Origin: Anaerolineales bacterium
Lineage (GTDB): Bacteria > Chloroflexota > Anaerolineae > E26-bin7
NCBI GenBank assembly: GCA_004377365.1
Contig: SOHZ01000648.1
Span: 1-52,576, forward strand
DNA length: 52,576 nucleotides
Direction: 5' to 3'
Below, piece after piece: positions 3,424 through 29,493 of the stretch; within the stretch, counting starts at the first letter, position 1, and every line of letters starts with the position of its first letter. The position numbers were made by a program, and so were the translations under genes. The notes under the pieces are model-generated. The model ran no database searches. It saw only the letters and a program-made list of their open reading frames with translations, and was not told where the DNA came from.

Positions 3424-3446
3424 TTCGCTCACCTCTTTCAGTTACG

Positions 3447-3475
3447 ATTATAGCATAGAACGTCAGCAGCGACAA
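3447..3475 (-). promoter_or_regulatory. sigma70-type promoter for the AbrB-like ORF
   Basis: Minus strand reads TTGTCG, a 17-nt spacer, then TATAAT (3470-3475 and 3447-3452). It sits about 24 nt upstream of the ATG at 3423. Confidence 0.45.
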
Positions 3476-3485
3476 GGGGGAAATC

Positions 3486-4601: not shown

Positions 4602-4656
4602 GCAAATTTCGAAAACTGGCCGAAAAATTATGGCGGATTTCTTCAGTTCATTCTCG

Positions 4657-5028
4657 TTACACCAACTTGCTCAAATCCGCTGCTGCGCGCTTCATATCCA
4701 AGAAGAGCATACCCAGCTTGGTGTCTTTGCGGGCCAACACAGTAAGCACAGCCTCTTCGCCTACATCTAAAAGGAGGACGTAGCCGTCGTCGCCTCGGAT
4801 GTAAACCTGATCCAACGTTCCGCGTCCCAACTCTACAGCGATGCGCTCGCCCAGGGAAAGCATAGCCGCCGACATAGCCGAGACCCGGTCCTCCTCCACA
4901 TCAGGTGGCAGAGCCGAGGCCATAATCAGACCGTCAACGCTAACCAAAGCGGAAGCCTCAACGTCCGTCGAACTGGCCTGCAGGTCCCTCAAGCGATCCG
5001 TCAACTGCTCAGTCCTCGATTTCGCCAT
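4657..5028 (-). CDS. Roadblock/LC7 (MglB-like) domain protein
   Basis: 123 aa. 'VEASALVSVDGLIMASALPPDVEEDRVSAMSAAMLSLGERIAVELGRGTLDQVYIRGDDGYVLLLDVGEEAVLTVLA' matches the Robl_LC7 pattern. An AAGGAG RBS lies upstream. Confidence 0.8.
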   Translation of the reverse strand: MAKSRTEQLTDRLRDLQASSTDVEASALVSVDGLIMASALPPDVEEDRVSAMSAAMLSLGERIAVELGRGTLDQVYIRGDDGYVLLLDVGEEAVLTVLARKDTKLGMLFLDMKRAAADLSKLV

Positions 5029-5175
5029 CGCCTTATATCTCCTTTTCCCTATGGCTGACTATAGCCAAAGTACTAGATTTAGCCCTTCGCTGCGCTCAGG
5101 GAACTTTTGCTCGGGCATAGGTAACGGGTGACGTGCAGAAAAGGGGCAACTGCACCATCTCCTCTCACTCGTTCT

Positions 5176-6081
5176 TCACCCTGGCCCAATCGCATCATGA
5201 TGGTCCTCATCACTCACTCCTTGCTGCTTACAGAACCCCGGAGGATCAGAGTCCAGAGTTTTCAGAGCCTGTCCTGAGCCCCGTCGAAGGATCGAAGGGT
5301 CCGGAGAGGAGCCGGGGGCCATCACTACCCGAAAACCGATGTTCTCGTAGGGGATGTCCGGGTTGAGCTTGGAGCGGCAGGCACAGCGGACGAAACACTC
5401 ATCGTGGCTGAACGCCCCGCCACGCAACACACGGGGGATGCTGTCCAGCGCATCCAGGTCCTCGCGGCCACCGGCCGAATCGTAAGGGGACTTGAACGAT
5501 GGCTTTTCCTGGTTCTTTCTCCACAGGCTACGCGTCCACTCCCACACGTTGCCAGCCATGTCCAACAATCCGTAAGGACTGGCCCCTTCGGGGTAGGCCC
5601 CCACCAGCGTGGTATCCCCCTTGCCGCCCTCTTTACTGTTGCATCGCTCCGCGTCCCACCGGTTGCCCCAGGGATAGATGCGCCCATCGCTGCCCCGCGC
5701 CCCCTTCTCCCATTCGGCTTCGCTGGGCAGGCAGTAGGACTTGCCGGTGACCTCGGCCAGCCAGTGACAGTAAGCTATAGCGTCATGCCAAGAGACCTCA
5801 ACCACGGGATGCTCCTCTTTGCCTCTTGGTGGTTTCCCATCTTCCCAATGTTTCGGCTGCTTGTGGCCGATAGCCTGCACAAAGGCAGCGTACTGAGCGT
5901 TGGTCACCGGCGTCTTGGCCAGGTAGTAGTCGGGCAGGTACAGAGTATGTTGGGGCTGCTTATCATCATCCGCATCTTGGTCCAAGCTGGGATCGCTGCC
6001 CATGAGGAACTCGCCAGCGGGGATGAGGACCATCTCCGGCTTGAAAGGCTGAGAGCGCTCCATGATGGCTTTTTCGATCAT
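5176..6081 (-). CDS. soluble FGE-sulfatase (SUMF1-fold) domain protein
   Basis: 'MVLIPAGEFLMGSDP..QPQHTLYLPDYYLAKTPVTNAQYAAFV..CLPSEAEWEKGARG..YPWGN..RVLRGGAF..IGFRVVMAP'. No TM helix. The last ~50 codons run into a REP-like element. Confidence 0.85.
   Translation of the reverse strand: MIEKAIMERSQPFKPEMVLIPAGEFLMGSDPSLDQDADDDKQPQHTLYLPDYYLAKTPVTNAQYAAFVQAIGHKQPKHWEDGKPPRGKEEHPVVEVSWHDAIAYCHWLAEVTGKSYCLPSEAEWEKGARGSDGRIYPWGNRWDAERCNSKEGGKGDTTLVGAYPEGASPYGLLDMAGNVWEWTRSLWRKNQEKPSFKSPYDSAGGREDLDALDSIPRVLRGGAFSHDECFVRCACRSKLNPDIPYENIGFRVVMAPGSSPDPSILRRGSGQALKTLDSDPPGFCKQQGVSDEDHHDAIGPG
5262..5300. repeat. REP-like element copy A (cctgagc / gtcgaagg motif family)
   Basis: 'cctgtcctgagccccgtcgaaggatcgaaggg' shares the cctgagc and gtcgaaggg/cccttcgac motifs with the copies at 37829, 38350 and 45427. 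Confidence 0.6.
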
Positions 6082-12460: not shown

Positions 12461-14527
12461 CTACGGCCTCTCAATGCGAGGCTCAACCCACACCGCCCAG
12501 TCCTGGCTGGGAGACCCGTTAGCCAGTAGTCTTAACGAGACATAGGAAGACCCCACAAAGATAGAGGGAAACTCAAAAGAGACATCCACAAGTGAGTTAT
12601 TATATGGCTTAACCTGGGTCCACGCCGTACTACCCCCGTTAGTGCCAGCTGTCACCATAAATCTCACATTGCCGGCGGCAGCATTCTTGAGGAATCCCAC
12701 CTTGGCCACGAACCTATCACCTGCTTGAATAGGCGAGGGCAAGTGGTACTTGCCTTGAATCCATCCGTCATTAACCCACTGAGGATGGGTTTCAAGCGCT
12801 TTCGGCCAGGTGCTCCCATCCTCAAGCTCCATACCGCCGACCGCTATGACGAAACCTTCATTGTCACCAGTGCCTCCTGGACACGGAAGCGAACCTGCCC
12901 CACTTGTCCAATTGGCATCACACATGTGGTCCATGAAATCGTATACCACCGTGGGGCCCGCAGGCGTTACATTAACCGTGACCGTCTTGTCCTCCGTGCT
13001 GGAATCCAGCTTGACTACGTGCAGGGTGTAGGTGGTAGTGGAAGCAGGACAAGTAGATCCCGACCAATGGGGACCGGTCACACCAGAGTTGGCGTACTCG
13101 GCACCGCTCAGGGTAGCTGTCTGCACGTTCTCAATGTGCACCCTCAGGGTTGTGCAATTCCCTGCGGTGATGGTATCGTCATCCACCGTGAACTCAATAA
13201 CCGATGAGGGAGGCGGCGGTTGGGTCGGCGTCGCCGTCGGAGTCTCCGTCGGAGTCGGAGTCGCCGTCGCCAGTGCGGGCACTACAATCTGCACGCTACA
13301 GGTCTGGCCAAAGACCTGCCCGTCGGGACTCTTCATCCGCCAGTGGCCGGTGTAGGTGCCCGGAGCGCTGGGCGCATACATGGTCACCCCAATGTCCACG
13401 TTGGCCCCCGCTGCGGTGGCGGGCACAGCCTGGGAAGGAGCAGCCCCCATCTGGTCGCCGGACACAAACACCCACGTGTACCCGCTCTCCCAGGGACAAC
13501 TGCCGCTGTTGCGGATGCGCCAAATCTTATCAACCTGTGTTCCAGGTGAGAAGACAGTCCCATCGGGCACGGTCACGTCGGCCACAAAGGCCGCATCCAG
13601 AGTGCAACCGGTGGGCGTGGGGGGGGGTGTCCCGGTGACGACGACAGGTGTCCCGGTCGCGGTGGGCGTACCTGGAGCCAGGGTGGATGTCACTTCACCT
13701 GGCCCAGGTGTGGTAGCCCCAGTGACGTTGACGGTGATGGCCTCCGGCTGGCTGACCCCTCCAGCAGCATTATAGGCTTTGAGCATCAGAGTATAGGTGC
13801 CAGGGGCCGACGCCCGCCAGGACTGCCGGGAGATGAAGGGCGATTGCCCCTGCGGGTTGGGACTGACGTCAGAGTGGTAGAGAACCCCATTGACCAACAG
13901 CTCGACACGGGTCACCCCTTTGGGATCGGTCGCCGTGACCTGGACAATGACCTCCTGTCCCACCGGCACCTGGCTGCCACTGGCAGGCGAGTTGATGACC
14001 ACCGTTGGCACTCCCCCGGCTATCTTCTTGCCCCGCTGGGTGTAAAGGTAGGCTCCAACGGCAGCCACGACGAGCAAGACGACAACCGCCGCGCCCAAGA
14101 GTCCCAAGGCCATCCACGACAGGCCCCCTGGCCCCTTCCTGGCCTCTGCCGGTGGGGCTGGCGGCGGGGCATAAGCTGGCGGCCGGGGGGCCGGCCCGAC
14201 TGCGGTCGGGTAAGCCCCCGCTACTGCCGGGCACTGAAAACCCAGTTGGGCCTTGCCCAGGCCGATGGTGTCGCCGTCGCGCAGGGCCTGGGCACCGGTG
14301 ACGCGCACACCGTTGACAAAGGTGCCGTTGGTGCTGCCCAGGTCCCTGATGACTGGCTGACCTCTTTCCCAGGTGATGCTGGCGTGGCGGCGAGAGACCT
14401 CAGAGTCAGTGACGACCACATCGCTGCCCACCACGCGGCCAAGAATGATGCTGTCCTTGGACACGGAAAAACGCTGGCCACGCTGGGGGCCTTGTTGTAC
14501 GGTTAAAGTAATAGAGGGTTGCTGCAT
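12461..14527 (-). CDS. FHA domain / TM / Ig-like / NBR1-like Ig / C-terminal unknown-domain protein (paralog 1)
   Basis: 688 aa with an AAGGAGG RBS. FHA segment: 'GRVVGSDVVVTDSEVSRRHASITWERGQPVIRDLGSTNGTFVNGVRV'. TM helix: 'WMALGLLGAAVVVLLVVAAVGAYL'. NBR1-like segment: 'AAFVADVTVPDGTVFSPGTQVDKIWRIRNSGSCPWESGYTWVFVSGDQMG..YAPSAPGTYTGHWRMKSPDGQVFG'. Confidence 0.8.
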   Translation of the reverse strand: MQQPSITLTVQQGPQRGQRFSVSKDSIILGRVVGSDVVVTDSEVSRRHASITWERGQPVIRDLGSTNGTFVNGVRVTGAQALRDGDTIGLGKAQLGFQCPAVAGAYPTAVGPAPRPPAYAPPPAPPAEARKGPGGLSWMALGLLGAAVVVLLVVAAVGAYLYTQRGKKIAGGVPTVVINSPASGSQVPVGQEVIVQVTATDPKGVTRVELLVNGVLYHSDVSPNPQGQSPFISRQSWRASAPGTYTLMLKAYNAAGGVSQPEAITVNVTGATTPGPGEVTSTLAPGTPTATGTPVVVTGTPPPTPTGCTLDAAFVADVTVPDGTVFSPGTQVDKIWRIRNSGSCPWESGYTWVFVSGDQMGAAPSQAVPATAAGANVDIGVTMYAPSAPGTYTGHWRMKSPDGQVFGQTCSVQIVVPALATATPTPTETPTATPTQPPPPSSVIEFTVDDDTITAGNCTTLRVHIENVQTATLSGAEYANSGVTGPHWSGSTCPASTTTYTLHVVKLDSSTEDKTVTVNVTPAGPTVVYDFMDHMCDANWTSGAGSLPCPGGTGDNEGFVIAVGGMELEDGSTWPKALETHPQWVNDGWIQGKYHLPSPIQAGDRFVAKVGFLKNAAAGNVRFMVTAGTNGGSTAWTQVKPYNNSLVDVSFEFPSIFVGSSYVSLRLLANGSPSQDWAVWVEPRIERP

Positions 14528-14675
14528 CTCATTTCCTCCTTAGTCTAGGGAGATTAAAGTCCACCGCCTTGGTATCGTTGGTGCCACCCTGGTTGTCGGC
14601 GGTGTAGAGCGTGATAGTAGCCCGGCACGGCATGCCGTTAGACTTGTCGGCGAGCCTGTTTGTGCCAATAGATGG

Positions 14676-16604
14676 TCAGGGGCTGATGGTTAGGGTCCAG
14701 ACCTTGACATTATTGTTCTCGTTCGTTTCGGCAACTTCATTGCGGTTATCAGCTTGGACCTCAACGTCATAATAACCGACCGAGGGGTACTTAAATGTGA
14801 CCGTTTTTGTACACGAAGCATATTGGGTATTTGCCGGACAGGATTCTTCCTGCCAGTCGAAGCCAGGCCCTTTTCGCCAACGAAAGTGCGAAGCCGGGAA
14901 AAAGGGTCCCCCGCTGGGATAGGTGTCGGTGACAATCATGATGAAGAGGCTGATCGTATCTATCACCGCCGGGTTGGCCGGGCTGGAATCCATCTTCTTG
15001 ACGTACAGGTCGTAAACGGCAGGCGAGGGGCAGACACCAGCTACGTGAACCGTGACCGTCCTGTCGGTCGTGCTGCCGTCGGTGAGCTCCACGTGTAAAG
15101 TGTAGGTGGTATCGTTACAAGGGCAGACTTGCTTCTCTTTATGACCGCCGATCACTGGCTCTCCGTCCAGCCAAGCAGCTCGCACATGCTCCACTCTGGC
15201 TCTGACCCAGGTACATTCCCCGGCGTTGATGTGGTCTCGGTCCACTGTGAGGCTGATCTCCGCCCCAGGCGGGGGCGGCGAGGTAGGCGTAGCCGTAGGT
15301 GTAGCGGTAGCCAGGCTCGAAACCACGATCCTCACACTGGACGTCTGGCCAAAGACCTGCCCATCGGAACTCTTCATCCGCCAGTAGCCGGTGTAGGTGC
15401 CCGGAGTACTGGGTGCATACATGGTCACCCCAATGTCCACGTTGCCACCCACGGCAGTGGTGGGCACAGCCTGGGAAGCAGCCGCCCCCATCTGGTCGCC
15501 GGACACGAACACCCACGTGTACCCACTCTCCCAGAGACAACTGCCGCTGTTGCGGATGCGCCAAATCTTGTCAATGCGGGCCCCTGGCTCAAAGACGGTG
15601 CCATCGGGCACGGTCACGTCGGCCACAAAGGCCGCATCCAGGTTACAGGGGGTGGGGGTCACGGTCGGTGTGGGGGTCACCACGATAATGACGGGGGTCT
15701 GGGTATCGGTGGGCGTGGCCGTCGGCCCCGGCGGGGTAGCCGTCGGCGTGGCCGTAGGCCCCGGCGGGGTAGCCGTCGGCGTGGCCGTAGGCCCCGACAG
15801 CGTGGGCGTGGCAGCCCCGGTGACGCTGACGGTGATGGCCTCCGGCTGGCTGACCCCTCCAGCAGCATTGTAGGCCTTGAGCATCAGAGTATAGGTACCA
15901 GGGGCCGATGCCTGCCAGGAGTGCCGGTAGATGAAGGGCGATTGCCCCTGCGGGTTGGGACTGACGTCAGAGTGGTAGAGAACCCCATTGACCAACAGCT
16001 CGACACGGGTCACCCCTCTGGAATCGGTCGCCGTGACCTGGACAATGACCTCCTGTCCCACCGGCACCTGGCCGCCGCTGGCAGGCGAGTTGATGACCAC
16101 CGTTGGCACCTTGGCTACCTTTTCGCCCCGCCGGGTATAAAGGGAAGCTCCAACGGCAGCCACGACGAGCAAGATGACAGCCGCCAGCCCAAAGAGCCCC
16201 AAGGCCATCCACGACAGACCCCCTGGCCCCCTCCTGGCCTCCACCGGTGGGGCTGGCGACCGGGGGGCCGGCCCGGCTACGGTCGGGTAAGCCCCCGCTA
16301 CTGCCGGGCACTGGAAACCCAGTTGGACCTTCCCCAGGCCGATGGTGTCGCCGTCGCTCAGGGCCTGGGAACCAGTGATGCGCACACCGTTGACAAAGGT
16401 GCCGTTGGTGCTACCCAGGTCCCTGATGACAGGCTGACCTCTTTCCCAGGTGATGCTGGCGTGGCGGCGAGAGACCTCAGGGTCACTGACGACCACATCG
16501 CTGCCCCGCACACGGCCGAGAATGATGCTGTCTTTGGCCACTGAAAAACGCTGGCCACGCTGGGGGCCTCGTTGTACGGTTAAAGTAATAGAGTGTTGCT
16601 GCAT
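14676..16604 (-). CDS. FHA domain / TM / Ig-like / PT-repeat linker / NBR1-like Ig / CARDB-like protein (paralog 2)
   Basis: Start refined to the ATG at 16604 ('MQQHSITLTV'), after AAGGAG. About 90% aa identity to paralog 1 over the first ~430 aa. The C-terminus 'YYDVEVQADNRNEVAETNENNNVKVWTLTISP' looks CARDB-like and differs from paralog 1. Confidence 0.8.
   Translation of the reverse strand: MQQHSITLTVQRGPQRGQRFSVAKDSIILGRVRGSDVVVSDPEVSRRHASITWERGQPVIRDLGSTNGTFVNGVRITGSQALSDGDTIGLGKVQLGFQCPAVAGAYPTVAGPAPRSPAPPVEARRGPGGLSWMALGLFGLAAVILLVVAAVGASLYTRRGEKVAKVPTVVINSPASGGQVPVGQEVIVQVTATDSRGVTRVELLVNGVLYHSDVSPNPQGQSPFIYRHSWQASAPGTYTLMLKAYNAAGGVSQPEAITVSVTGAATPTLSGPTATPTATPPGPTATPTATPPGPTATPTDTQTPVIIVVTPTPTVTPTPCNLDAAFVADVTVPDGTVFEPGARIDKIWRIRNSGSCLWESGYTWVFVSGDQMGAAASQAVPTTAVGGNVDIGVTMYAPSTPGTYTGYWRMKSSDGQVFGQTSSVRIVVSSLATATPTATPTSPPPPGAEISLTVDRDHINAGECTWVRARVEHVRAAWLDGEPVIGGHKEKQVCPCNDTTYTLHVELTDGSTTDRTVTVHVAGVCPSPAVYDLYVKKMDSSPANPAVIDTISLFIMIVTDTYPSGGPFFPASHFRWRKGPGFDWQEESCPANTQYASCTKTVTFKYPSVGYYDVEVQADNRNEVAETNENNNVKVWTLTISP
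15710..15800 (-). repeat. ~36-nt tandem coding repeat (~2.5 copies) encoding PTATPTATPPG units
   Basis: Read directly: 'gccgtcggcgtggccgtaggccccggcggggta' is repeated. It is present only in FHA paralog 2. Coordinates are approximate. Confidence 0.7.
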
Positions 16605-16747
16605 CGTCACCTTCTCCTTACACAGTACACAAACCAACGCTTCTACTCATAAATCCCCCAACCATCTCTAGTCCTCGTTATGGGGCAGCGATGGACAGGC
16701 GAAAACTGATGATGGGGGAACGTGGTCAAAATCAATGGCTTGCTCTC

Positions 16748-16862: not shown

Positions 16863-19238
16863 TCACCGCCCGGCCTTGATCCAATACCTCTCACCATCGC
16901 TGATCACCTCCACCGTGCCGTTTTGATCGGTGCGCAGCACCATCACACTGTGCTCCTCCAGCTTGGCCAGTGTCGTCGGATCGGGATGGCCGAACTTGTT
17001 GTCGGCCCCGACTTGAATGACGACTAACTGGGGATTGACCGCTTCGAGGAACTTGGTGTTGAGGGAAGTATCACTGCCGTGATGGGGAGATTTGAGGATA
17101 GTGCTGGTCAGGTCCTCGTTGCTCGACAGCAGAACTGCTTCCGCCTCCTCTTCCACATCTCCGGGCAGCAGAAACGAGATGTGGCCATAGGTCAGGCGCA
17201 GCACGATGGAGTTGTTGTTGAGATCTGAGCCGGTGTCTGAGAGGAGATCACTCTGAGGGTAGAGGACTTTTATCTGCAACCCTTCGCCCAATTGGATCCG
17301 CATCCCGGCGCGGGCCAATTGGTAGGGAACGCCTTTCTCCTGGACTAACTCCAGGCAGTGAGTGTAGGCAGGCGTGGGGTGCTCCTGGCCCCCGTCGAGG
17401 ACAGCTTTGACCTTGTAGCGTTCAAGGACAGGGATCAGACCGCTGACGTGGTCGTCGTGAGGGTGGGTGAGAACCACCAGGTCAATGGTGCGCTCCCAGA
17501 AGGGCATCCGACGGCCCAGGGCGGTCAGCAAGAGGGTAGGACTTGGCCCGCCGTCCACCAAGACTTTTTGACCCCGAGGGGTCTGGATAAGGATGGCGTC
17601 CCCCTGACCGACGTCAAGGAAGGTGACATGCAGTTTGCCATCGGGCAGGCTGAAAGCAGCCCCCCACACCAGCAGCACAACGATGGCCAGTCCAGCCACC
17701 AGAGCCTTGATTGAAAAACGATCGGTCAGGCGCTGCCAGAGCGTTTTGAGGCGTGAGGGTTCCTGTGCAGTCACGATGGTACCTCCAGCGAGCAAGCCGT
17801 AATAGAGACAGACCAGGCCCAAGCTGACACGCCCCACGTCCAGCGAGGCGTAGGGCACGCGGGCCGTAAGCTCAACGATGACGATAGTAAAAGTCAGAAA
17901 GAGCCAAGCCACCCAGCCCAAAGCCTGACCCAGAGGCCGCCAGAGAAGCCCAGCGATGGTGGCCACGCCTCCCCAGAGCATCACCCCTGGCTGAGCGGGC
18001 AGGATCAGGAGGTTGGTGAGGAGGGTGACCAGGGAGAGAGTATGGAAATTGTAGACGATGATGGGCAGGGTAGTAATCTGGGCGGCCAGGGTCACAATGA
18101 GGGCCTCGTTGAACAGACTAATGGCTTTTTGGATTGCCCCTTCCGATAGCAATTTGCGTAGGCCGCGCTCAAACCAACCCTGGACGATGGGAGTGTAGAG
18201 CACCAGGCCCAAAGTAGCGGCAAAGGAAAGTTGAAAACCAAGGTCCCACAGAGTGAAGGGGTTGAGAGCTGTCATCAGGATGGCGGCAGCCATGAGGGAG
18301 TTGAGGGCATCGCTCTGGCGGCCGTAGTGGATGGCGATGACGTAGAGGCTGCCCATGATGGCCGCCCGCACCACGGCTGCCGAAGCGCCGACGAAGATGG
18401 TGTAGAGAATGATCCCGGCCACGGCAAAGGGCATGGCCCGCCGCCTGCCGAAGAGACGGGTGCTCAAACCGCTGAGGAGACCAGCTATGATGGAGATGTT
18501 AAATCCGCTGATAGCGATGATGTGGCTGGTGCCGGTGGCCGAGAAATCAGCCATCAAGTCGGCGGGGATACCCCTTTCTACGCCCAACAGGATACCTGTT
18601 AGAAGGGAGGCTTGAGGTTCAGACAGCATCTGGGCGATGGTGGCCTGAGCGCGGCTCTTGAAGGCATAGAGTTTGGCGTAGAAAAAGTTGCCCTGGTCAC
18701 GGGCCAGGAGGGTAATGCGGGGGCGGCGCAAAAGGGAGTGGATACCCTGACGGGCCAGGTAGTCCCTGTAGGAGAAATCCTCAAATTCGGGCGGCGTTCC
18801 CAGGAGGCCCTCGATCTCCAGACGGTCCCCGTAGCGGTACTCAGGATAGCGGGGTGCTCGCACCAGGACGGTGCCTGTTACAGCACATTCCTGATCGCCC
18901 AGGGCCAGGCTCTCGGTGGCTACCCGCAGGTTGGTATAGGTGTCACGCACATCGGGCTCACCGCTGACAACGCCTGTCAGCTTGACCCAACCCTGTTCGT
19001 TGTAATAAGCCAGAGAGCCCTCATCGAAGTGAGGAATCGTAGAAGAGTAGCGCCAGGCACCGATGAGAAGGGCCAGGGCGCATACACTGGCCAACCTAAC
19101 CCGGGGATTCTCGCGCCAGAGAAAGAGGCTGACCAACGGCACGAGCCCCATCACGGCGAGGAAGAGCGCGGGCAGATTCAGGAGCGAGCTCAGAAATATG
19201 CCAGCCAGCCAGGCTATGCCCAGGTAGATAAGAGTCAC
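16863..19238 (-). CDS. comEC: ComEC/Rec2 DNA-internalisation protein with C-terminal metallo-beta-lactamase domain
   Basis: Polytopic membrane core plus 'VTFLDVGQGDAILIQTP..VLVDGG' and 'LVVLTHPHDDHVSGL' (MBL HxHxDH). The start is uncertain. The GTG at 19238 avoids an overlap with argF, whereas the track ORF extends to 19376. Confidence 0.8.
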   Translation of the reverse strand: MTLIYLGIAWLAGIFLSSLLNLPALFLAVMGLVPLVSLFLWRENPRVRLASVCALALLIGAWRYSSTIPHFDEGSLAYYNEQGWVKLTGVVSGEPDVRDTYTNLRVATESLALGDQECAVTGTVLVRAPRYPEYRYGDRLEIEGLLGTPPEFEDFSYRDYLARQGIHSLLRRPRITLLARDQGNFFYAKLYAFKSRAQATIAQMLSEPQASLLTGILLGVERGIPADLMADFSATGTSHIIAISGFNISIIAGLLSGLSTRLFGRRRAMPFAVAGIILYTIFVGASAAVVRAAIMGSLYVIAIHYGRQSDALNSLMAAAILMTALNPFTLWDLGFQLSFAATLGLVLYTPIVQGWFERGLRKLLSEGAIQKAISLFNEALIVTLAAQITTLPIIVYNFHTLSLVTLLTNLLILPAQPGVMLWGGVATIAGLLWRPLGQALGWVAWLFLTFTIVIVELTARVPYASLDVGRVSLGLVCLYYGLLAGGTIVTAQEPSRLKTLWQRLTDRFSIKALVAGLAIVVLLVWGAAFSLPDGKLHVTFLDVGQGDAILIQTPRGQKVLVDGGPSPTLLLTALGRRMPFWERTIDLVVLTHPHDDHVSGLIPVLERYKVKAVLDGGQEHPTPAYTHCLELVQEKGVPYQLARAGMRIQLGEGLQIKVLYPQSDLLSDTGSDLNNNSIVLRLTYGHISFLLPGDVEEEAEAVLLSSNEDLTSTILKSPHHGSDTSLNTKFLEAVNPQLVVIQVGADNKFGHPDPTTLAKLEEHSVMVLRTDQNGTVEVISDGERYWIKAGR

Positions 19239-19260
19239 GACGCCCCCTAACAGCGCAGGA

Positions 19261-20184
19261 TCAGAAGCCGAGCATCTCCACCATGAGTGCTTTCTGCACG
19301 TGCATCCGGTTCTCCGCTTCGTCCAGCACCACCGAATGGGGACCATCGAGCACGTCAGCCGTGATCTCATCACCACGATGGGCTGGCAGACAGTGCATCA
19401 CCAGCACGTCCCCTTTGGCCAGGTCCACCAGGGCCTGGTTGACCTGATAAAGAGGGAAGATTTTGCTACGCTCCTCGGCCTCACTTTCCTGGCCCATGCT
19501 GGCCCAGACGTCGGTATAAAGGGCGTCGGCTCCTTTGGCCGCCACCGCCGGGTCGGTGGTGACAACGATTTCGCTGCCGCTCTCTTGGGCCAACTTCCTG
19601 GCCCACCCTACCACGCTTGGATCGGGCCAGTATCCCCTGGGGCAGGCCGCCGCCATGTTGATGCCCATGGTGGCGCAGATGAGCAGGAGTGAGTGGCAGA
19701 CGTTGTTGCCATCGCCCAGCCAGGCCAGCTTGAGCCCCTGCAACTCGCCTTTGTGTTCATGGAGGGTAAGAAGGGCAGCCAGAGCCTGGCAAGGGTGCTC
19801 GTGATCGGAGAGGGCATTGATCACGGGCACACTGGCTTCCTGAGCCAGTTCTATTACGGATTCATGGGCATAGGTGCGAGCCATGATGATCTCTACCCAG
19901 CGGGAGAGGTTGGCTGCAATGTCGGCTATCGTCTCCCGAGTGCCAAACCCGATGTCCTGACCCAGGTAGATGGCATGGCCGCCCAATTGGGTCATCCCAG
20001 CCTCAAAGGTCACCCGGGTGCGCAGCGAGGGCTTCTCGAAGATCATGGCCATCGTCTTGCCGGCCAGGAGTGGCGGATTGCCTCCGGCTTTCCATTCTGC
20101 TTTGAGAGCCCGCGCCCGTTCAATGACGCACTCAACTTCTTCACGGGAGAAATCCCCCATGCTGACCAGGTTTTTGCCTTTCAT
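19261..20184 (-). CDS. argF: ornithine carbamoyltransferase
   Basis: 'FEKPSLRTRVTFE', 'HPCQALA', 'DVWASMG' and 'HCLPAHRGDE' are the carbamoyl-phosphate and ornithine binding motifs. 307 aa, with an AAGGAGG RBS. Confidence 0.85.
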   Translation of the reverse strand: MKGKNLVSMGDFSREEVECVIERARALKAEWKAGGNPPLLAGKTMAMIFEKPSLRTRVTFEAGMTQLGGHAIYLGQDIGFGTRETIADIAANLSRWVEIIMARTYAHESVIELAQEASVPVINALSDHEHPCQALAALLTLHEHKGELQGLKLAWLGDGNNVCHSLLLICATMGINMAAACPRGYWPDPSVVGWARKLAQESGSEIVVTTDPAVAAKGADALYTDVWASMGQESEAEERSKIFPLYQVNQALVDLAKGDVLVMHCLPAHRGDEITADVLDGPHSVVLDEAENRMHVQKALMVEMLGF

Positions 20185-20255
20185 TAGTTTCCTCCTTCGT
20201 AGATAACTCCTGTAGTAAACGTAGGCCCTCGCAAGCGAGGGCCAGAGGTGGGAGG

Positions 20256-20329
20256 TGCGCCCGACAGGACTCGAACCTGCAACCTAGGGTTTAGGAAACC
20301 CTTGCTCTATCCACTTGGGCCACGGGCGC
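20256..20329 (-). tRNA. tRNA-Arg (anticodon CCT)
   Basis: The reverse complement folds as a 74-nt cloverleaf. Acceptor GCGCCCG/CGGGCGC, anticodon stem AGGGT/ACCCT with loop TTCCTAA, T-arm GCAGG-TTCGAGT-CCTGT. No encoded CCA. Confidence 0.85.
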
Positions 20330-20362
20330 ACGTCAATTGTGGTTGAACTGGGGTGAACAAAG

Positions 20363-20434
20363 CACCCCCGGGGCGACTCGAACGCCCGCACATGGCTCCG
20401 GAGGCCACTGCTCTATCCGCTGAGCTACGGGGGC
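20363..20434 (-). tRNA. tRNA-Arg (anticodon CCG)
   Basis: 72-nt cloverleaf. Acceptor GCCCCCG/CGGGGGT (G1-U72 wobble), D-arm GCTC-AGCGGATA-GAGC, anticodon loop CTCCGGA, T-arm GGGCG-TTCGAGT-CGCCC. Confidence 0.8.
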
Positions 20435-20493: not shown

Positions 20494-21153
20494 CTAACGA
20501 GCCAATAAGTAAAGGAGAAGGGCAGAGAGAAGAGGAACTGTCAGATTGTCAACGTGCCAAATAGAGACCGCCTCAACTGCGGTAGCGATGACAGCCACAA
20601 TGAGAGAGTAGAGCAGACTCAACTGCCAGCCAAGAGGAGGGAAAAACAAAAGGGCTAGAAAAGTGGCCAGCCAACTGAAAAGGAACATGGTCAGCGATCC
20701 CTCCAGCGAACGGGTGAATCCCCTGATGCTGTACTTGTATTTACCATAGGGTCTGCCCAGGATAGCTGCCAGGGCATCGCCCCAGGTCATCGGCATCAGG
20801 CTGGCCACCACCAGGTACCGTCTGGTCCACAGAAAATAGATAATGAGGGCAAAAGAAATGGGGAAATAAACAGTGCCCAGGTTGCCCTTTTCGCCCATCT
20901 CCATAGCCTTGAAGGTTTCCCGACGATAGGAAACGTAATTGATGAGCACAAAGGAAAGAGGAGGAATTGCCGCAAAGTACCAATTCTCGAAAAGGAGAAC
21001 GGTACCCACCGACCACATGCCTACAGCGATGTGGATAAACTTGCGGGTAAAGTCCGTCGAGTAGCCCTGCCATTTGCGCAGGCCCTCGCCAATACCGATG
21101 GCGGCAAAAACGTAAACGTAGGATAGAGCAAGAGCAAGCCAGTCAGATTTCAT
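20494..21153 (-). CDS. CTP_transf_1 family membrane protein (polyprenol/phytol/dolichol kinase or CdsA-like)
   Basis: 219 aa, polytopic. 'FTRKFIHIAVGMW' and 'WGDALAAILGRPYGKYKY..RSLEGSLTMF' match the cytidylyltransferase/polyprenol-kinase family signature. Confidence 0.6.
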   Translation of the reverse strand: MKSDWLALALSYVYVFAAIGIGEGLRKWQGYSTDFTRKFIHIAVGMWSVGTVLLFENWYFAAIPPLSFVLINYVSYRRETFKAMEMGEKGNLGTVYFPISFALIIYFLWTRRYLVVASLMPMTWGDALAAILGRPYGKYKYSIRGFTRSLEGSLTMFLFSWLATFLALLFFPPLGWQLSLLYSLIVAVIATAVEAVSIWHVDNLTVPLLSALLLYLLAR

Positions 21154-21216
21154 AACCGGTATCCTTTCTTATGCTGATTACAGCTAGGCTGACCTCATGC
21201 TGAGGGAGCCCAAAAC

Positions 21217-21492
21217 TGTGGATAACTAGCTAAAAACTGTGGATAAGTGCTCCAAGTTGGGGATAACTCTCCTCTGTTACCGCTTACTGCATTTTCACTT
21301 TGGGGCCTTTGTACTAATTCCGAATCAGCAAACTCCCCCACATATCTAGTTGACTACTGCCCCTCATTCATCCACAATCTTGTCCACATCCATTGAAAAA
21401 GCCCTCTGCCAACACTATACAAGGCATCGCCCTCTCCACATCCATACCCCCAACATCTAGGGCAATCTTGGGACCTAAACTCGTTATCCCCA
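21217..21492. promoter_or_regulatory. cluster of DnaA-box-like 9-mers (oriC / DnaA-regulatory candidate)
   Basis: Perfect TGTGGATAA at 21217-21225 and 21238-21246, both within a repeated aaaactgtggataa spaced 21 bp apart. TGGGGATAA at 21258-21266. In the opposite orientation: TCATCCACA at 21368-21376, TTGTCCACA at 21380-21388, CTCTCCACA at 21432-21440 and TTATCCCCA at 21484-21492. An AT-rich stretch follows at ~21520-21590. Confidence 0.5.
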
Positions 21493-21714
21493 GATCTCAC
21501 AGGCCCTACTACGACTACTATTTTAGTATAACATCCAGGGTTAAGTTTACCTTTATATTTCTTTGAGAAGCAACTCTAACTTCTCCAATTGTATCACCAA
21601 TGAGTTTCTCAGGAAAGCTCGCACAGAAAAGTCTGGACTCACAGGTTCACAAGGGAATCTTTGGGCAGAGAGTGTAATCACAATTCTATCAGAAACCTTT
21701 CCTGTTGTCAACAG

Positions 21715-21752
21715 TGCCAAAGAATGCAAAATCTAGCAACCTGTGGTATAAT
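21715..21752 (+). promoter_or_regulatory. extended -10 promoter for apgM
   Basis: TGgTATAAT, with TATAAT at 21747-21752. A weak -35 (atgcaa) lies 17 nt upstream. The promoter sits inside the 5' part of the track ORF, which supports the downstream GTG start. Confidence 0.45.
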
Positions 21753-21806
21753 TCTGAGAAATCGTCCCCAGCAGAATTGCGCATTTGTGTTTGGAAAGGA
21801 GAGATC

Positions 21807-23012
21807 GTGGCTGATCTTGAGCTGATGCGGGAATTGCAAATCGCTAGTGAGAGCAAAATCGTCATGCTGGTTATTGATGGCCTGGGAGGGCTGCCTATGG
21901 AACCGGGTGGGCCCACGGAACTGGAAGCGGCCCGGACTCCTAACCTGGACCACCTGGCTGCCAGGGGCCTCTGCGGTCTGAGTGTGCCCATTGGGCCAGG
22001 CATTACCCCTGGCAGCGGGCCAGCCCACCTGGCTCTCTTTGGCTATGACCCGCTCAAATACGAGATTGGGCGGGGCGTGCTAGAGGCCCTGGGCATCGGC
22101 TTCGACTTGCACGACGAAGACGTGGCCGCCCGGGGCAACTTTTGCACAGTGGATGAAAAGGGCCTCATCACCGACCGGCGAGCGGGGCGTATCCCCACAG
22201 AAAAAAACGTCGAACTTGTCAAGCTGCTCAGGGGCATCAAGCTGTCAGGTGTACACATCTTTGTAGAGACGGTCAAAGAATACCGCTTCGTCCTGGTCCT
22301 CCGTGGCGAAGGCTTGGAGGGAGGGCTGACAGAGACTGACCCCCAGCAGTTGGGAGTGCCTCCGCTCCCTGTGGAGGCCCTGGTGCCGGAGGCGGAGCGG
22401 ACGGCTCAGTTGTTTAACCAGTGGATCGCCCAGGCCAGGAAGATATTGGCTGACCAGCGCCCGGCCAACATGGTCAATCTGCGGGGCCTGGCCAAAAACC
22501 CGGGCCTGCCCAGCATGGAGGAGGTCTACGGCCTGCGCTCAGCGGCCATCGCCAGCTATCCCATGTATCGCGGCGTGGCCAAACTGTTGGGCATGGATGT
22601 GCTGGATACAGGGGAAGCGTTGGAGGAAGAGGTCGAAACTCTCCAGGCCCACTTTGCGGACTATGATTTCTTTTTCGTCCACGTCAAAAAGACCGACAGC
22701 GCTGGCGAGGACGGCGACTTTGAGCGCAAAGTCTCCATCATTGAGCACGTGGACGAGTTGGTGCCAGCCATCCTGGACTTGAAGCCGGAAGTCCTCATCG
22801 TCACCAGCGACCATTCCACGCCGGCCTTGCTCAGGTTGCACAGTTGGCATCCCGTGCCCACTCTCCTTCACTCCCGCTATTGCCGCGCCGATCAGACCGA
22901 CGAGTTCTCCGAGCGGGGATGCAGTCGGGGGGCTCTGGGGCGCTTCCCTGCTGTTGATCTGATGCCCCTTGCCATGGCCAATACCTTGCGTTTGGCGAAG
23001 TATGGAGCATAA
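21807..23012 (+). CDS. apgM: cofactor-independent phosphoglycerate mutase, archaeal type
   Basis: GTG at 21807 after AAGGAGAG. 'KIVMLVIDGLGGLP...ELEAARTPNLDHLA..G......PGSGPAHLALFGYDP' and 'LIVTSDHSTP' match the ApgM (COG3635) pattern. Confidence 0.75.
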   Translation: MADLELMRELQIASESKIVMLVIDGLGGLPMEPGGPTELEAARTPNLDHLAARGLCGLSVPIGPGITPGSGPAHLALFGYDPLKYEIGRGVLEALGIGFDLHDEDVAARGNFCTVDEKGLITDRRAGRIPTEKNVELVKLLRGIKLSGVHIFVETVKEYRFVLVLRGEGLEGGLTETDPQQLGVPPLPVEALVPEAERTAQLFNQWIAQARKILADQRPANMVNLRGLAKNPGLPSMEEVYGLRSAAIASYPMYRGVAKLLGMDVLDTGEALEEEVETLQAHFADYDFFFVHVKKTDSAGEDGDFERKVSIIEHVDELVPAILDLKPEVLIVTSDHSTPALLRLHSWHPVPTLLHSRYCRADQTDEFSERGCSRGALGRFPAVDLMPLAMANTLRLAKYGA

Positions 23013-27528: not shown

Positions 27529-29493
27529 TTATTCTCCTCGCAGTTCGCGCAGGTGTTGCTCGGCCTGCTCGCGCCAGTGCGGGTCGGTGCTCAATTCCAG
27601 ATAACGCTCAAAGTCGGCGATGGCTGCTTCGTGGTCACCCAGATTGCTGTGTGCTGCGGCACGGTTGAAGTATGCCTCGGCGAGGTCCGGCTTGATGCGG
27701 ATGGCTTCAGTGCAGTCGGCGATGGCTGCTTCGTGGTCGCCCAACTCTCGTTGTGCCGCTGAACGGTTGACGTATGCCCCGGCGAAGTCAGGTTTGATGC
27801 GGATGGCTTCGGTGTAGTCGGCGATGGCCGCTTCGTGATCGCCTAGATTGCTGTGTGCGATGGCACGGCCGAGGTATGCCTCGGCGAGGTCCGGCTTGAT
27901 GCGGATGGCTTCGGTGCAGTCGGCAATGGCCGCTTCGTGGTCACTCAGATTGCTGTGGGCGATGGCACGGTTCAAGTATGCCGTAGCGTAGTCGGGCTTG
28001 ATGCGGATGGCTTCGGTGCAGTCGGCAATGGCCGCTTGGTAGTCGCCCAACTCTCGTCGTGCCGCTGAACGGCTGAAGTATGCTTCAGCGTAGTCAGGCT
28101 TGATGCGGATGGCTTCGGTGTAGTCGGCGATGGCCGCTTCGTGGTCACCCAGATTGAAGTGTGCGAAGCCACGGCCGTAGTACGCTTCGGCGTAGTCGGG
28201 CTTGATGCGGATGGCTTCGGTGTAGTCGGCGATGGCCGCTTCGTGGTCGCCCAGATTGCCGTGTGCGCAAGCACGGTTGAAGTACCCTGGCGCATCCTCG
28301 GGATTCAAGTAGAGGGCGCGATCATAATCTTGCAAGGCAATCTCGTATTCCCCGAGCCAAGAGTAGCAGTTTGCCCGCCACACGTAGGCTTCCCAAGGTT
28401 TGACCCGTGTACCCTCCACAACGCTGCTCACTGCCGCATCGAAGAAAGAGATAGCCTGCCGCAACTCGGCCGATGACTCAACGACGATGTGGGTCATCCC
28501 CAGTGTAAAGAGCCCCAGATAGGCAGACTGCGAGGGAATTTCATTGAGAAAGTAGAAAGCCATTGGTGTGGGCGTTTCCAGGGCTATCCCTTCGCCTTGT
28601 ATCGTGTGTTCGCCGATCAGCTCAACGTAGGGCTGTGCCCCCAGACTGTTATACCAGCCCCAAATGACGAGATTGGCCGCGTACAGCTCGCCGAGTGTTT
28701 GTGCATCCCGCGAATTGGTTACGACCTGTTCAAATCGCTCTACCCGCGCGTTTGATTCTGGATTATCCTGAGCCGCCAGGAGAACAAAGTCATAGATTGA
28801 CGAACTGGGGTCAACGCCAACCAACTGGCCTTCACTACGGTTGTCAAACTCGGCGACGATAATTAGCGCTTCATCGTCGCTAGCCGGAGCAAAGGCCGTT
28901 GGGGTGGGCAGCAACCCTTGCAGCGTAGGGATGTTAAAGATGCTTGCTGCCAGCACAAAGGCCAGGATCAACCCCACCGTCAGAATCGCCAATCCACAGG
29001 GGGATACCACCGCCTGGAACACTTTGCGAATGGGGCTGCCAAAGAACTTTTCCACGATATCCGGGTGATGGTTCACCTTCTCGTCGAGTTCGGTGCCGGC
29101 CCAAAAGTCACACTCCAGCCCGGCCTGCTTGCAGCGCTCGCGGGCCTTTTGCCGGGTGTTGGCCGAAACGTCGCAGGTGACGAGAAACACCAGCACCGCC
29201 GGGCGCTGGTCCTCCGGCAGGGCCAGCACTTTCTTGACTTCCGTCAGCGCATCCTTTGGGTAAAAGCTCTGTACCCGCTTGCATTGAAAGGCCCACAATA
29301 CACCCTCGCGCCAGGCGATGATGTCGCGGCCCTGCTCGCTGCCCGCTGCGCCCAGGTGCTCGGCCCGTTCGTACCCTTCGCGCTTGACCAGCCACAGGCA
29401 CAGCCGTTCAAAGTCACGCGGCGACAGTTTGTCGAAGGGCAAGGGGTGAGTTGTTCCAGTGATAGGAGGTTGGGGCTGGGTCATAAGATTCAC
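27529..29493 (-). CDS. Mrr-like restriction-endonuclease-fold domain / TM helix / TPR-array protein
   Basis: N-terminus: 'LSPRDFERLCLWLVKREGYERAEHLGAAGSEQGRDIIAW..LWAFQCKR' (Mrr_cat-like D...QxK). TM helix: 'GLAILTVGLILAFVLAASIF'. Eight C-terminal 34-aa TPRs. The likely start is the ATG at 29484, after AAGGTG. Confidence 0.7.
   Translation of the reverse strand: MNLMTQPQPPITGTTHPLPFDKLSPRDFERLCLWLVKREGYERAEHLGAAGSEQGRDIIAWREGVLWAFQCKRVQSFYPKDALTEVKKVLALPEDQRPAVLVFLVTCDVSANTRQKARERCKQAGLECDFWAGTELDEKVNHHPDIVEKFFGSPIRKVFQAVVSPCGLAILTVGLILAFVLAASIFNIPTLQGLLPTPTAFAPASDDEALIIVAEFDNRSEGQLVGVDPSSSIYDFVLLAAQDNPESNARVERFEQVVTNSRDAQTLGELYAANLVIWGWYNSLGAQPYVELIGEHTIQGEGIALETPTPMAFYFLNEIPSQSAYLGLFTLGMTHIVVESSAELRQAISFFDAAVSSVVEGTRVKPWEAYVWRANCYSWLGEYEIALQDYDRALYLNPEDAPGYFNRACAHGNLGDHEAAIADYTEAIRIKPDYAEAYYGRGFAHFNLGDHEAAIADYTEAIRIKPDYAEAYFSRSAARRELGDYQAAIADCTEAIRIKPDYATAYLNRAIAHSNLSDHEAAIADCTEAIRIKPDLAEAYLGRAIAHSNLGDHEAAIADYTEAIRIKPDFAGAYVNRSAAQRELGDHEAAIADCTEAIRIKPDLAEAYFNRAAAHSNLGDHEAAIADFERYLELSTDPHWREQAEQHLRELRGE
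27580..28293 (-). repeat. 7 x 102-nt near-identical tandem coding repeats (TPR units 2-8)
   Basis: Units are of the form 'AEAYxxRxxAxxxLGDHEAAIADxTEAIRIKPDx'. The second half of each unit is almost invariant at the nucleotide level. Confidence 0.85.

What the first reader, a model, noticed from the sequence alone, without database searches (positions are those of the whole stretch)
21154..21806. DnaA-box cluster in a 0.65 kb AT-richer spacer at a switch in gene orientation: an oriC or DnaA-controlled region not next to dnaA
Seen in sequence:
- Two perfect TGTGGATAA boxes are embedded in a duplicated 14-mer (aaaactgtggataa) exactly 21 bp apart, with a third, TGGGGATAA, 20 bp further on.
- About 100 bp later there are four boxes in the opposite orientation with 1-2 mismatches: TCATCCACA, TTGTCCACA, CTCTCCACA and TTATCCCCA.
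- An AT-rich tract follows at ~21520-21590 ('attttagtataacatcc...tttacctttatatttctttg').
- All annotated genes from 10.4 to 21.15 kb are on the minus strand. The next genes (apgM, aminotransferase) are on the plus strand. This divergence is what is expected at a replication origin.

Established: TTATCCACA is the consensus DnaA box, and origins combine box clusters with an AT-rich unwinding element.

Inference: this is a candidate oriC or a datA/DARS-like DnaA-titrating locus. The absence of dnaA/dnaN in the flanks would be atypical and therefore worth checking.
Basis: partly seen in the sequence, partly recalled or inferred. Interest (0 to 1): 0.65.

Follow-up and report, generated by a model that had tools for sequence, protein, structure and literature searches.

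The report
Probable replication origin away from dnaA
The 0.65-kb spacer is very probably the chromosomal replication origin of an uncultured marine-sediment Anaerolineae bacterium, with DnaA boxes, an unwinding module and the least stable DNA of the window, but no dnaA gene beside it; that makes it a new example of a known kind of origin.

Summary
Observation confirmed. Seven of the window's 16 near-consensus DnaA boxes, and all three perfect ones, lie in 21030-21492; 0.06 are expected by chance.

Box 21484-21492 is followed by a degenerate second box, GGCC, DnaA-trios (CTA CTA CGA CTA CTA TTT) and then the least stable 50 and 80 bp of the whole window. This is the layout of the 'basal unwinding system' (BUS) of bacterial oriC.

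- A 25-nt pattern taken only from this locus and one relative hit 41 metagenome contigs. In 31 of them dnaA ends 70-350 bp upstream.
- Two Anaerolineae-type dnaA loci, one in the 5.35-Mb record CP070811.1, carry the same layout just downstream of dnaA: three tandem boxes about 21 bp apart, about 250 bp, then box-GGCC-trios.
- Boxes and trios are conserved in four orthologous spacers. None has dnaA nearby.
- The window has no dnaA or dnaN.

Best reading: a functional oriC that lost its dnaA neighbour (confidence 0.8). GC skew over 52 kb is uninformative. The species' own dnaA locus could not be found. New member of a known kind; moderate interest.

The parts
21217..21266 (-). Left array: three tandem DnaA boxes on the minus strand. 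TTATCCACA at 21217-25 and 21238-46, TTATCCCCA at 21258-66, spaced 21 and 20 bp (two helical turns).
   Evidence: 26 of 27 box positions are invariant in four orthologues. The same triple array lies downstream of dnaA in L130 and L132.
21368..21388 (+). Middle boxes on the plus strand: TCATCCACA (21368-76, weakly conserved) and TTGTCCACA (21380-88, conserved; TTATCCACA in L120).
   Evidence: The MAFFT register is off by 1 nt here, so conservation was read by eye from the alignment blocks.
21484..21505 (+). Tandem boxes next to the unwinding site: TTATCCCCA (21484-92), then directly the degenerate box GATCTCACA (21493-21501), then the GC cluster GGCC (21502-05). Together these make a 13-nt spacer to the trios.
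   Evidence: The pattern TTATCCNCAGANNNCACAGNCCCTA hit 41 metagenome loci, 31 of them just downstream of dnaA. 13 nt is the commonest BUS spacer (PMC8287927).
21506..21523 (+). DnaA-trios: CTA CTA CGA CTA CTA TTT on the top strand, which is 3'-GAT-5' on the bottom strand. Five of six triplets fit [CT]T[AT]; the third (CGA) breaks the run.
   Evidence: 14 of 18 positions are invariant in the orthologues. The dnaA-linked locus L088 has the same CTA CTA CGA CTA start.
21514..21594 (.). AT-rich DNA unwinding element (69-75% A+T).
   Evidence: It holds the least stable 50-bp and 80-bp windows of all 52.5 kb.
21683..21711 (-). Sigma-70-like promoter TTGACA-17-TAGAAT with an upstream TG (11 of 12 matches). 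It reads leftwards into the DUE and boxes, towards the 219-aa gene. Conserved in L003 and L086 but absent in L127.
21742..21752 (+). Extended -10 element TGTGGTATAAT, the likely promoter of apgM. In L003 and L086 it precedes an ABC-ATPase gene inserted before apgM.
20494..21153 (-). Left flanking gene: a 219-aa membrane protein that sources name phytol/dolichol kinase or phosphatidate cytidylyltransferase. It holds a perfect DnaA box at 21030-21038.
   Evidence: It is linked to the origin in L086, L120 and L127-129. The internal box is polymorphic in the population (21037 A>G).
21807..23012 (+). Right flanking gene apgM (cofactor-independent phosphoglycerate mutase). It is not a conserved neighbour of the origin.

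Best explanation
The spacer 21154-21806 is the chromosomal replication origin (oriC) of an uncultured Anaerolineae bacterium (Chloroflexota) from marine sediment.

Inferred mechanism, by analogy with the Bacillus subtilis basal unwinding system:
1. DnaA occupies the three strong tandem boxes at 21217-21266 and the oppositely oriented boxes at 21380 and 21484.
2. From the tandem pair 21484-21501 a DnaA oligomer extends across the GGCC cluster onto the DnaA-trios of the bottom strand (21506-21523).
3. This opens the adjacent AT-rich element (21514-21594), where the helicase is loaded.

Shown here: the sequence elements, their order and spacing, their conservation, and their identity of layout with dnaA-linked origins.

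Inferred: DnaA binding, unwinding, and that this is the only or the active origin.

In this genus a rearrangement has separated the origin from dnaA. A polyprenol-kinase-like gene now sits where related Anaerolineae have the 3' end of dnaA.
For: 1. Box cluster far above chance, including all three perfect boxes of the window.
2. Box, 13-nt spacer holding a degenerate second box and GGCC, then trios. Among 250 boxes in 1.18 Mb of control Chloroflexota DNA, only the orthologue in L003 scores as high, at 5 of 6 trios.
3. The least stable DNA of the window starts within the trios.
4. A 25-nt pattern taken only from the window and L003 found 41 metagenome loci. All 41 begin the next stretch with CTA (part of the pattern) and most run on as CTA/TTA-type triplets. 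In 31 of them dnaA ends 70-350 bp upstream on the same strand.
5. The same overall architecture lies directly downstream of dnaA in L130 (Anaerolineales, CP070811.1, 5.35 Mb) and L132: three tandem minus-strand boxes at about 21-bp spacing, about 250 bp, then a plus-strand box, GGCC or GCCC, trios and AT-rich DNA. L017 has a compact version.
6. Four orthologous spacers keep the boxes and the BUS: L120, L003, L086 and L127 (L128 and L129 are further contigs carrying the L127 locus). 78% of element positions are invariant against 57% of the rest, Fisher p = 0.0009. Meanwhile the right flank, a 73-bp indel and the sequence beyond the DUE all vary.
7. The best-supported population variants in the spacer avoid the boxes and trios.
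8. No ORF evidence, no Rfam hit and no tRNA in the spacer.
Against: - No GC-skew inflection at 21.2 kb. Third-position skew gives a replication component of about +0.02 on both sides, with a standard error of about 0.018. Cumulative skew shows no minimum here. The test has little power over 52 kb.
- Right of 24 kb most genes would be head-on to a fork leaving this site.
- No parS within 52 kb.
- The published search rule of three or more uninterrupted NAN trios within 16 bp of a box is not met literally, because the third trio is CGA. However, 6 of 15 distinct dnaA-linked BUS sequences recovered here also have initial runs of 2 or fewer.
- The dnaA locus of this species was not found, so a second, dnaA-linked origin in the same genome cannot be excluded.
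Confidence: 0.8

Rival explanations
1. A former or secondary origin. The active oriC would lie elsewhere, for example beside this genome's dnaA, and this locus would be a relocated or duplicated copy that no longer fires or fires only as an auxiliary.
For: No skew inflection is detectable. This species' dnaA locus was not examined. dnaA-linked origins of the same architecture exist in relatives.
Against: Boxes, GC cluster and trios are kept in four orthologous spacers, while neighbouring spacer sequence, flanks and indels diverge. A dead origin should decay. Two of five sampled Anaerolineae/Chloroflexota dnaA loci (L131, L133) have no boxes within 4 kb, so origins separated from dnaA recur in the group.
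Confidence: 0.1
2. A DnaA-box cluster that titrates DnaA or lets it regulate genes. It would resemble E. coli datA/DARS or the B. subtilis DnaA-box clusters, or act as a DnaA-controlled promoter region for the 219-aa gene and apgM, without unwinding.
For: The three strong boxes lie just upstream of the 219-aa gene's start. Conserved promoters flank the region. The locus is far from dnaA.
Against: Titration or regulation needs only boxes. It does not explain the precise box, GGCC and trio module followed by the least stable DNA of the window, nor why that motif retrieves dnaA-linked origins in 31 of 41 cases.
Confidence: 0.07
3. Chance accumulation of box-like 9-mers in an AT-richer spacer, or the origin of an integrated plasmid or phage beside the two tRNA-Arg genes.
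For: The spacer is AT-richer than its surroundings. Two tRNA-Arg genes lie 0.7 kb to the left.
Against: 0 of 100 shuffles reach the window's count, and the local excess is about 100-fold. The boxes are conserved across orthologues. No integrase, replication or mobile-element genes lie in the flanks, which are housekeeping genes (argF-type OTCase, ComEC, apgM, plsX, fabF).
Confidence: 0.02

Closest known systems
Basal unwinding system (BUS) of bacterial oriC, defined in Bacillus subtilis incC (PMC6669920, PMC8287927; Richardson et al. 2016 as cited in those papers)
   Same: Tandem DnaA boxes with the better one upstream, a roughly 4-bp GC cluster, a 13-nt spacer, 3'-GAT-5' trios and an AT-rich DUE, all in the same order and orientation.
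   Different: It is not between dnaA and dnaN. The third trio is CGA, so the trio run is split 2 + 3. There is no experimental evidence.
dnaA-downstream origin regions of related Anaerolineae, predicted here: L130 (CP070811.1), L132 and L017
   Same: L130 and L132 have three tandem minus-strand boxes at about 21-bp spacing, about 250 bp with weak boxes, then a plus-strand box, GGCC or GCCC, CTA-type trios and AT-rich DNA. L130 also carries a CAACATCT-like block.
   Different: In those genomes dnaA ends about 90 bp before the first box. Here a polyprenol-kinase-like gene on the other strand takes that place. L017 is a compact version without the triple array.
Origins known to lie away from dnaA, such as E. 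coli oriC between gidA and mioC or Caulobacter Cori next to hemE
   Same: A DnaA-dependent origin whose neighbours are unrelated metabolic genes. Nearby promoters read towards the unwinding region.
   Different: Different box layout and accessory sites. Here the canonical BUS is intact, and only the gene neighbourhood has changed.
E. coli datA and DARS, and the B. subtilis DnaA-box clusters outside oriC
   Same: Clusters of DnaA boxes away from dnaA.
   Different: Those loci are not described as having trios plus a DUE. This locus has both.

Membership tests
Bacterial chromosomal origin (oriC) with a basal unwinding system | Cluster of at least three DnaA boxes less than about 100 bp apart on average (criterion quoted in PMC7561715) | tested here: met
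   Six boxes with up to 1 mismatch lie in 21217-21492, plus one at 21030. About 0.06 are expected.
Bacterial chromosomal origin (oriC) with a basal unwinding system | A DnaA box with up to 2 mismatches lying 0-16 bp upstream of the trios, in the 5'-TTATCCACA-3' orientation, with an optional second weaker box and a roughly 4-bp GC cluster in the spacer (PMC8287927) | tested here: met
   TTATCCCCA (1 mismatch) is followed by GATCTCACA, then GGCC. That is a 13-nt spacer, the commonest length.
Bacterial chromosomal origin (oriC) with a basal unwinding system | At least three consecutive DnaA-trios (3'-NAN-5', consensus 3'-GAT-5') | tested here: inconclusive
   The sequence is CTA CTA CGA CTA CTA TTT. 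Five of six fit, but the run is split 2 + 3 by CGA, so the literal rule within 16 bp fails. Six of 15 distinct dnaA-linked BUS sequences recovered here also start with runs of 2 or fewer, and L088 has the same CGA.
Bacterial chromosomal origin (oriC) with a basal unwinding system | AT-rich, easily melted element directly beyond the trios | tested here: met
   21514-21563 and 21515-21594 rank first of about 52,500 windows for instability.
Bacterial chromosomal origin (oriC) with a basal unwinding system | Elements conserved in orthologous loci | tested here: met
   In the four-way alignment 78% of element positions are invariant against 57% elsewhere (p = 0.0009). L127 keeps the same layout.
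Bacterial chromosomal origin (oriC) with a basal unwinding system | Lies at the switch of strand composition (GC-skew or Z-curve minimum) and at the coverage maximum of growing cells | tested here: inconclusive
   No inflection appears within 52 kb, but the power is too low. Only assembled contigs of the sequencing runs are available, not reads.
Bacterial chromosomal origin (oriC) with a basal unwinding system | Adjacent to dnaA or dnaN (typical, not defining) | tested here: not met
   Neither gene is within -21 kb or +31 kb, nor in any orthologous locus.
Bacterial chromosomal origin (oriC) with a basal unwinding system | DnaA-dependent unwinding and autonomous or in vivo initiation | not testable with these tools
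   This needs biochemistry or a cultured host.
DnaA-titrating or DnaA-reactivating loci (datA, DARS) and non-origin DnaA-box clusters | A box cluster that binds DnaA but has no unwinding module. Function is defined by effects on DnaA-ATP/ADP levels. | tested here: not met
   An unwinding module (trios plus DUE) is present. The functional criterion itself cannot be tested here.

The most novel reading that the evidence does not exclude
In Anaerolineae the origin may behave as a portable module that is repeatedly cut loose from dnaA and acts as a rearrangement hotspot. Three different right-hand neighbourhoods occur among close relatives. Two of five sampled dnaA loci have no boxes. In this genus a conserved sigma-70 promoter beyond the DUE transcribes through the unwinding region, and perhaps the whole origin, into the polyprenol-kinase gene, which could couple origin opening to transcription.
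Probability: 0.25. Interest if true: 0.5.

Novelty: new member of a known kind. Interest (0 to 1): 0.38.

Why it matters
- Tools that place origins in genomes and metagenome bins, and growth-rate estimates from coverage (peak-to-trough ratios), often take dnaA as the origin marker. In this Anaerolineae genus, and probably in other Chloroflexota (L131, L133), that assumption would put the origin in the wrong place.
- The composite motif of box, degenerate box, GGCC and trios marks the origin on a single contig without needing chromosome-scale skew. Here it recovered dnaA-linked origins in 31 of 41 hits.
- The locus also gives a natural series of closely related origins with different flanks and a 73-bp indel. 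That series is useful for asking which parts of an origin are constrained.

Tried and rejected
- GC skew, AT skew and third-position skew across the window showed no inflection, and the test is underpowered.
- The parS search found no match with up to 3 mismatches.
- The 80 apgM loci from genomes showed that the origin is linked to apgM only in the same species and one 91% relative, so apgM is not a conserved origin neighbour.
- L017 has dnaA 3 kb from apgM. It is the only such case among the 80 loci, and I estimate about 0.4 by chance, so I treat it as coincidence.
- Homologues of the 219-aa gene at about 77% identity (L124, L126) have no spacer and no boxes. The linkage is therefore limited to the near clade.
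- I suspected a structural breakpoint at the left edge because two contigs start there. It is explained by an 11-12-nt indel polymorphism after 21179 that splits the assembly graph.
- Coverage-based marker frequency was not attempted. Only assembled contigs are held for the runs, and the expected gradient over 50 kb is below 1%.
- I could not find this species' own dnaA. The DnaA search returns thousands of Chloroflexota proteins with nothing tying any of them to this genome.
- Rfam at a permissive threshold, tRNA and ORF scans of the spacer found nothing.

Full report
**1. The observation**

The spacer runs from 21154 to 21806 (653 bp). On its left is a 219-aa membrane-protein gene on the minus strand (20494-21153). 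On its right is apgM on the plus strand, starting at GTG 21807 behind a GGAGAG ribosome-binding site.

- Perfect TGTGGATAA at 21217 and 21238, inside a duplicated 14-mer 21 bp apart.
- TGGGGATAA at 21258.
- On the other strand, TCATCCACA 21368, TTGTCCACA 21380, CTCTCCACA 21431 and TTATCCCCA 21484.

A scan with up to 1 mismatch finds 16 boxes in the window, against 6.8 +/- 2.5 in shuffles. Seven of them lie in 21030-21492, including all three perfect ones. About 0.06 would be expected in a stretch of that length.

No dnaA or dnaN is in the window. Pfam was run on all large ORFs, and tblastn with an Anaerolineae DnaA found nothing.

The only RNA genes are two tRNA-Arg at 20254-20434. The spacer has no Rfam match even at E <= 1 and no credible ORF.

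**2. Source organism**

The apgM protein is encoded identically on a contig of MAG GCA_030589485.1 and in one Logan assembly. Its nearest relatives in species-representative genomes are Anaerolineae MAGs. The runs that hold the sequence are marine or other sediment metagenomes.

**3.

Immediately after box 21484-21492 come these elements, in order:
- GATCTCACA, a degenerate second box with no gap.
- GGCC.
- CTA CTA CGA CTA CTA TTT (21506-21523).

On the bottom strand these triplets read 3'-GAT-5', the consensus DnaA-trio.

The published description of the basal unwinding system (BUS) is a DnaA box, a spacer of up to 16 bp that may hold a weaker second box and a roughly 4-bp GC cluster (13 bp is the commonest length), then trios (PMC8287927). 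The C. difficile trio string 5'-CACCTACTACTATTACTACTATGA-3' is of the same type (PMC7561715). Here the spacer is exactly 13 nt.

Controls:
- Among 250 boxes with up to 1 mismatch in 1.18 Mb of control Chloroflexota DNA, the only one followed by 5 of 6 strict trios is the orthologue of this site in L003.
- The trios run into the least stable DNA of the whole window. 21514-21563 ranks first of about 52,500 50-bp windows, and 21515-21594 ranks first of the 80-bp windows.

**4. Is the motif really an origin signature?**

I took a 25-nt pattern, TTATCCNCAGANNNCACAGNCCCTA, from the window and L003 only, and scanned the metagenome collection. It matched 41 contigs.
- All 41 begin the following stretch with CTA (part of the pattern), and most run on as CTA/TTA-type triplets.
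- In 31 of them a dnaA gene ends 70-350 bp upstream on the same strand.
- Two of the rest (L086, L120) are orthologues of this locus.
- Several others are too short upstream to tell.

The window's trio score is 5 of 6, with an initial run of 2. That lies inside the spread of the 15 distinct dnaA-linked sequences, which score 1-6. Six of those 15 have initial runs of 2 or fewer, and L088 begins with the same CTA CTA CGA CTA. So the CGA interruption fails the literal published rule but does not set this site apart from real dnaA-linked origins.

**5. Same architecture next to dnaA in relatives**

| Locus | What lies downstream of dnaA |
|---|---|
| L017 (Anaerolineae MAG) | TTTTCCACA-n10-TAATCCACA-GGC-CTA CTA CTA-CCT TTA, directly after dnaA |
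| L130 (Anaerolineales, CP070811.1, 5.35 Mb) | Three perfect minus-strand boxes spaced 22 and 20 bp; 259 bp on, ATATCCACA-GGCC-CTA TTA CTA CAA CTA CCT TTA TTT and AT-rich DNA |
| L132 | Two perfect boxes and TGGGGATAG about 21 bp apart; then TTTTCCCCA-GCCC-CTA CTA CTG TTA CTA AAA |
| L131, L133 | No box within about 4 kb of dnaA |

The window has the same plan as L130 and L132: three tandem minus-strand boxes (21/20 bp), 226 bp, then a plus-strand box, GGCC, trios and the DUE. The 219-aa gene sits where dnaA would end. L131 and L133 show that separation of dnaA from the origin recurs in this group.

**6. Conservation**

Orthologous spacers were recovered from other species-level relatives:
- L003 (apgM 91% identical).
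- L086 and L120 (219-aa protein about 92% identical).
- L127, with L128 and L129 as further contigs carrying the same locus (90% identical).

None has dnaA.

In the four-way alignment the three left boxes are 26 of 27 invariant, box 21484 is 8 of 9, and the trios are 14 of 18. Overall 78% of element positions are invariant against 57% of the rest (Fisher p = 0.0009). Box 21380 is conserved too (TTATCCACA in L120), although the aligner put it out of register. Box 21431 is not conserved.

Other features vary among these relatives:
- The right flank is apgM here, an ABC-ATPase gene followed by apgM in L003 (in L086 the contig ends within the ABC-ATPase gene), and RidA/DUF4230/POR genes in L127.
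- The window lacks 73 bp that the others have after 21357.
- Sequence beyond the DUE cannot be aligned in L127.

In sediment populations the best-supported variants in the spacer fall between the elements. The coding-internal box at 21030 is hit by a common A>G change at 21037.

**7. Tests that gave nothing**

- Cumulative GC skew has no minimum at 21.2 kb.
- At third codon positions C exceeds G on the coding strand everywhere. The replication-related component is about +0.02 on both sides, with a standard error near 0.018. The skew test is therefore uninformative at this scale and, if anything, mildly unfavourable.
- Gene orientation diverges only locally.
- No parS site was found.
- Marker-frequency analysis is not feasible, because only assembled contigs of the runs are held.
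- This species' own dnaA locus could not be identified.

**8. Interpretation**

The best explanation is a functional oriC that has lost its dnaA neighbour. DnaA on the strong tandem boxes and the right-hand boxes would feed an oligomer from the 21484-21501 pair onto the bottom-strand trios, opening 21514-21594. Those steps are inferred from the B. subtilis model (PMC6669920, PMC8287927).

What is shown here is the anatomy, its rarity, its conservation, and its identity with dnaA-linked origins.

Rivals:
- A relic or secondary origin (0.1). Selective conservation argues against it.
- A titration or regulatory box cluster (0.07). This does not explain the trios plus DUE.
- Chance or a mobile-element origin (0.02).

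**9. Other features of the spacer**

A conserved minus-strand promoter, TTGACA-17-TAGAAT at 21711-21683, reads into the DUE. A plus-strand TGTGGTATAAT at 21742-21752 serves apgM. Both are conserved in L003 and L086 but not in L127, so they are not part of the conserved origin core.

**10. Novelty**

Origins away from dnaA are well known in other phyla, and the BUS is a described system. This is a new member of a known kind. Its practical relevance is for locating origins in Chloroflexota MAGs.

Noticed in passing
window 21030-21038: A perfect DnaA box lies inside the 219-aa gene, 124 bp from its start. In sediment populations 21037 A>G is common, so this box is probably not under the same constraint as those in the spacer.
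   Followed up: partly
window 21357/21358, against L003, L086, L120 and L127: The window lacks a 73-bp segment that all four orthologous origins have between the left and right box arrays. 73 bp is close to seven helical turns, so the phasing of the two arrays may be preserved.
   Followed up: partly
window 21159-21186; L002 and L003 contig starts: Two independent assemblies break at the left edge of the spacer. Laid contigs show an 11-12-nt insertion polymorphism (CCAAAGCAACA or similar) after 21179 that splits the assembly graph.
   Followed up: yes
window 21328-21354, 21390-21413 and 21451-21462: Three blocks that are not DnaA boxes are conserved in the orthologues: GCAAACTCCCCCACATATCTAGTTGAC, CCATTG...AAGCCCTCTGCCAAC and CAACATCTAGGG. 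L130's dnaA-linked origin has similar CCACATCTAGGGGG and CAACATCTTGG. They may be weak boxes or sites for another origin-binding factor.
   Followed up: no
L003 594-1802; L086: In two close relatives an ABC-transporter ATPase gene (UgpC/MalK-like) sits downstream of the conserved TGTGGTATAAT promoter; in L003 it lies between that promoter and apgM, and the L086 contig ends within it. The window lacks it, so there has been gene gain or loss right beside the origin.
   Followed up: partly
L127 9351-10001 and flanks: A 90% relative keeps the 219-aa gene and the origin, but its other flank is RidA/DUF4230/pyruvate-ferredoxin-oxidoreductase genes, not apgM. This is a third neighbourhood for the same origin.
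   Followed up: partly
L131 and L133 (dnaA at 4001-5360): Two Chloroflexota dnaA loci have no DnaA box with up to 1 mismatch within about 4 kb of dnaA. None of the five dnaA loci examined (L017, L130-L133) has dnaN next to dnaA.
   Followed up: partly
L083, L085, L087, L092, L094, L097, L101, L102, L104, L107, L112: A group of near-identical sites, all but L092 with dnaA just upstream (L092 is too short upstream to tell), has perfect tandem boxes and GGCC followed by CTA TGA CGA TGA TGA GAC. Almost none of these triplets fits the NAN trio rule, so this may be a lineage with a variant single-strand motif.
   Followed up: no
window about 4020-4050: A tandem heptamer, CAAATCT x4, lies at the overlap of two ORFs (3438-4031 minus, 3486-4601 plus glycosyltransferase). 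It is among the least stable stretches of the window.
   Followed up: no
window 22-1287; 12461-16637; 27529-29493: Unusual domain fusions: TIR + FGE-sulfatase; two adjacent paralogues with FHA + Big_7 + N_BRCA1_IG; and an Mrr-type nuclease domain + a long TPR array.
   Followed up: no
window 16863-19376 against 19261-20184: The longest ComEC ORF overlaps the OTCase gene by 116 nt. The MAG annotation calls a shorter ComEC (791 aa), so the real start is probably downstream.
   Followed up: no
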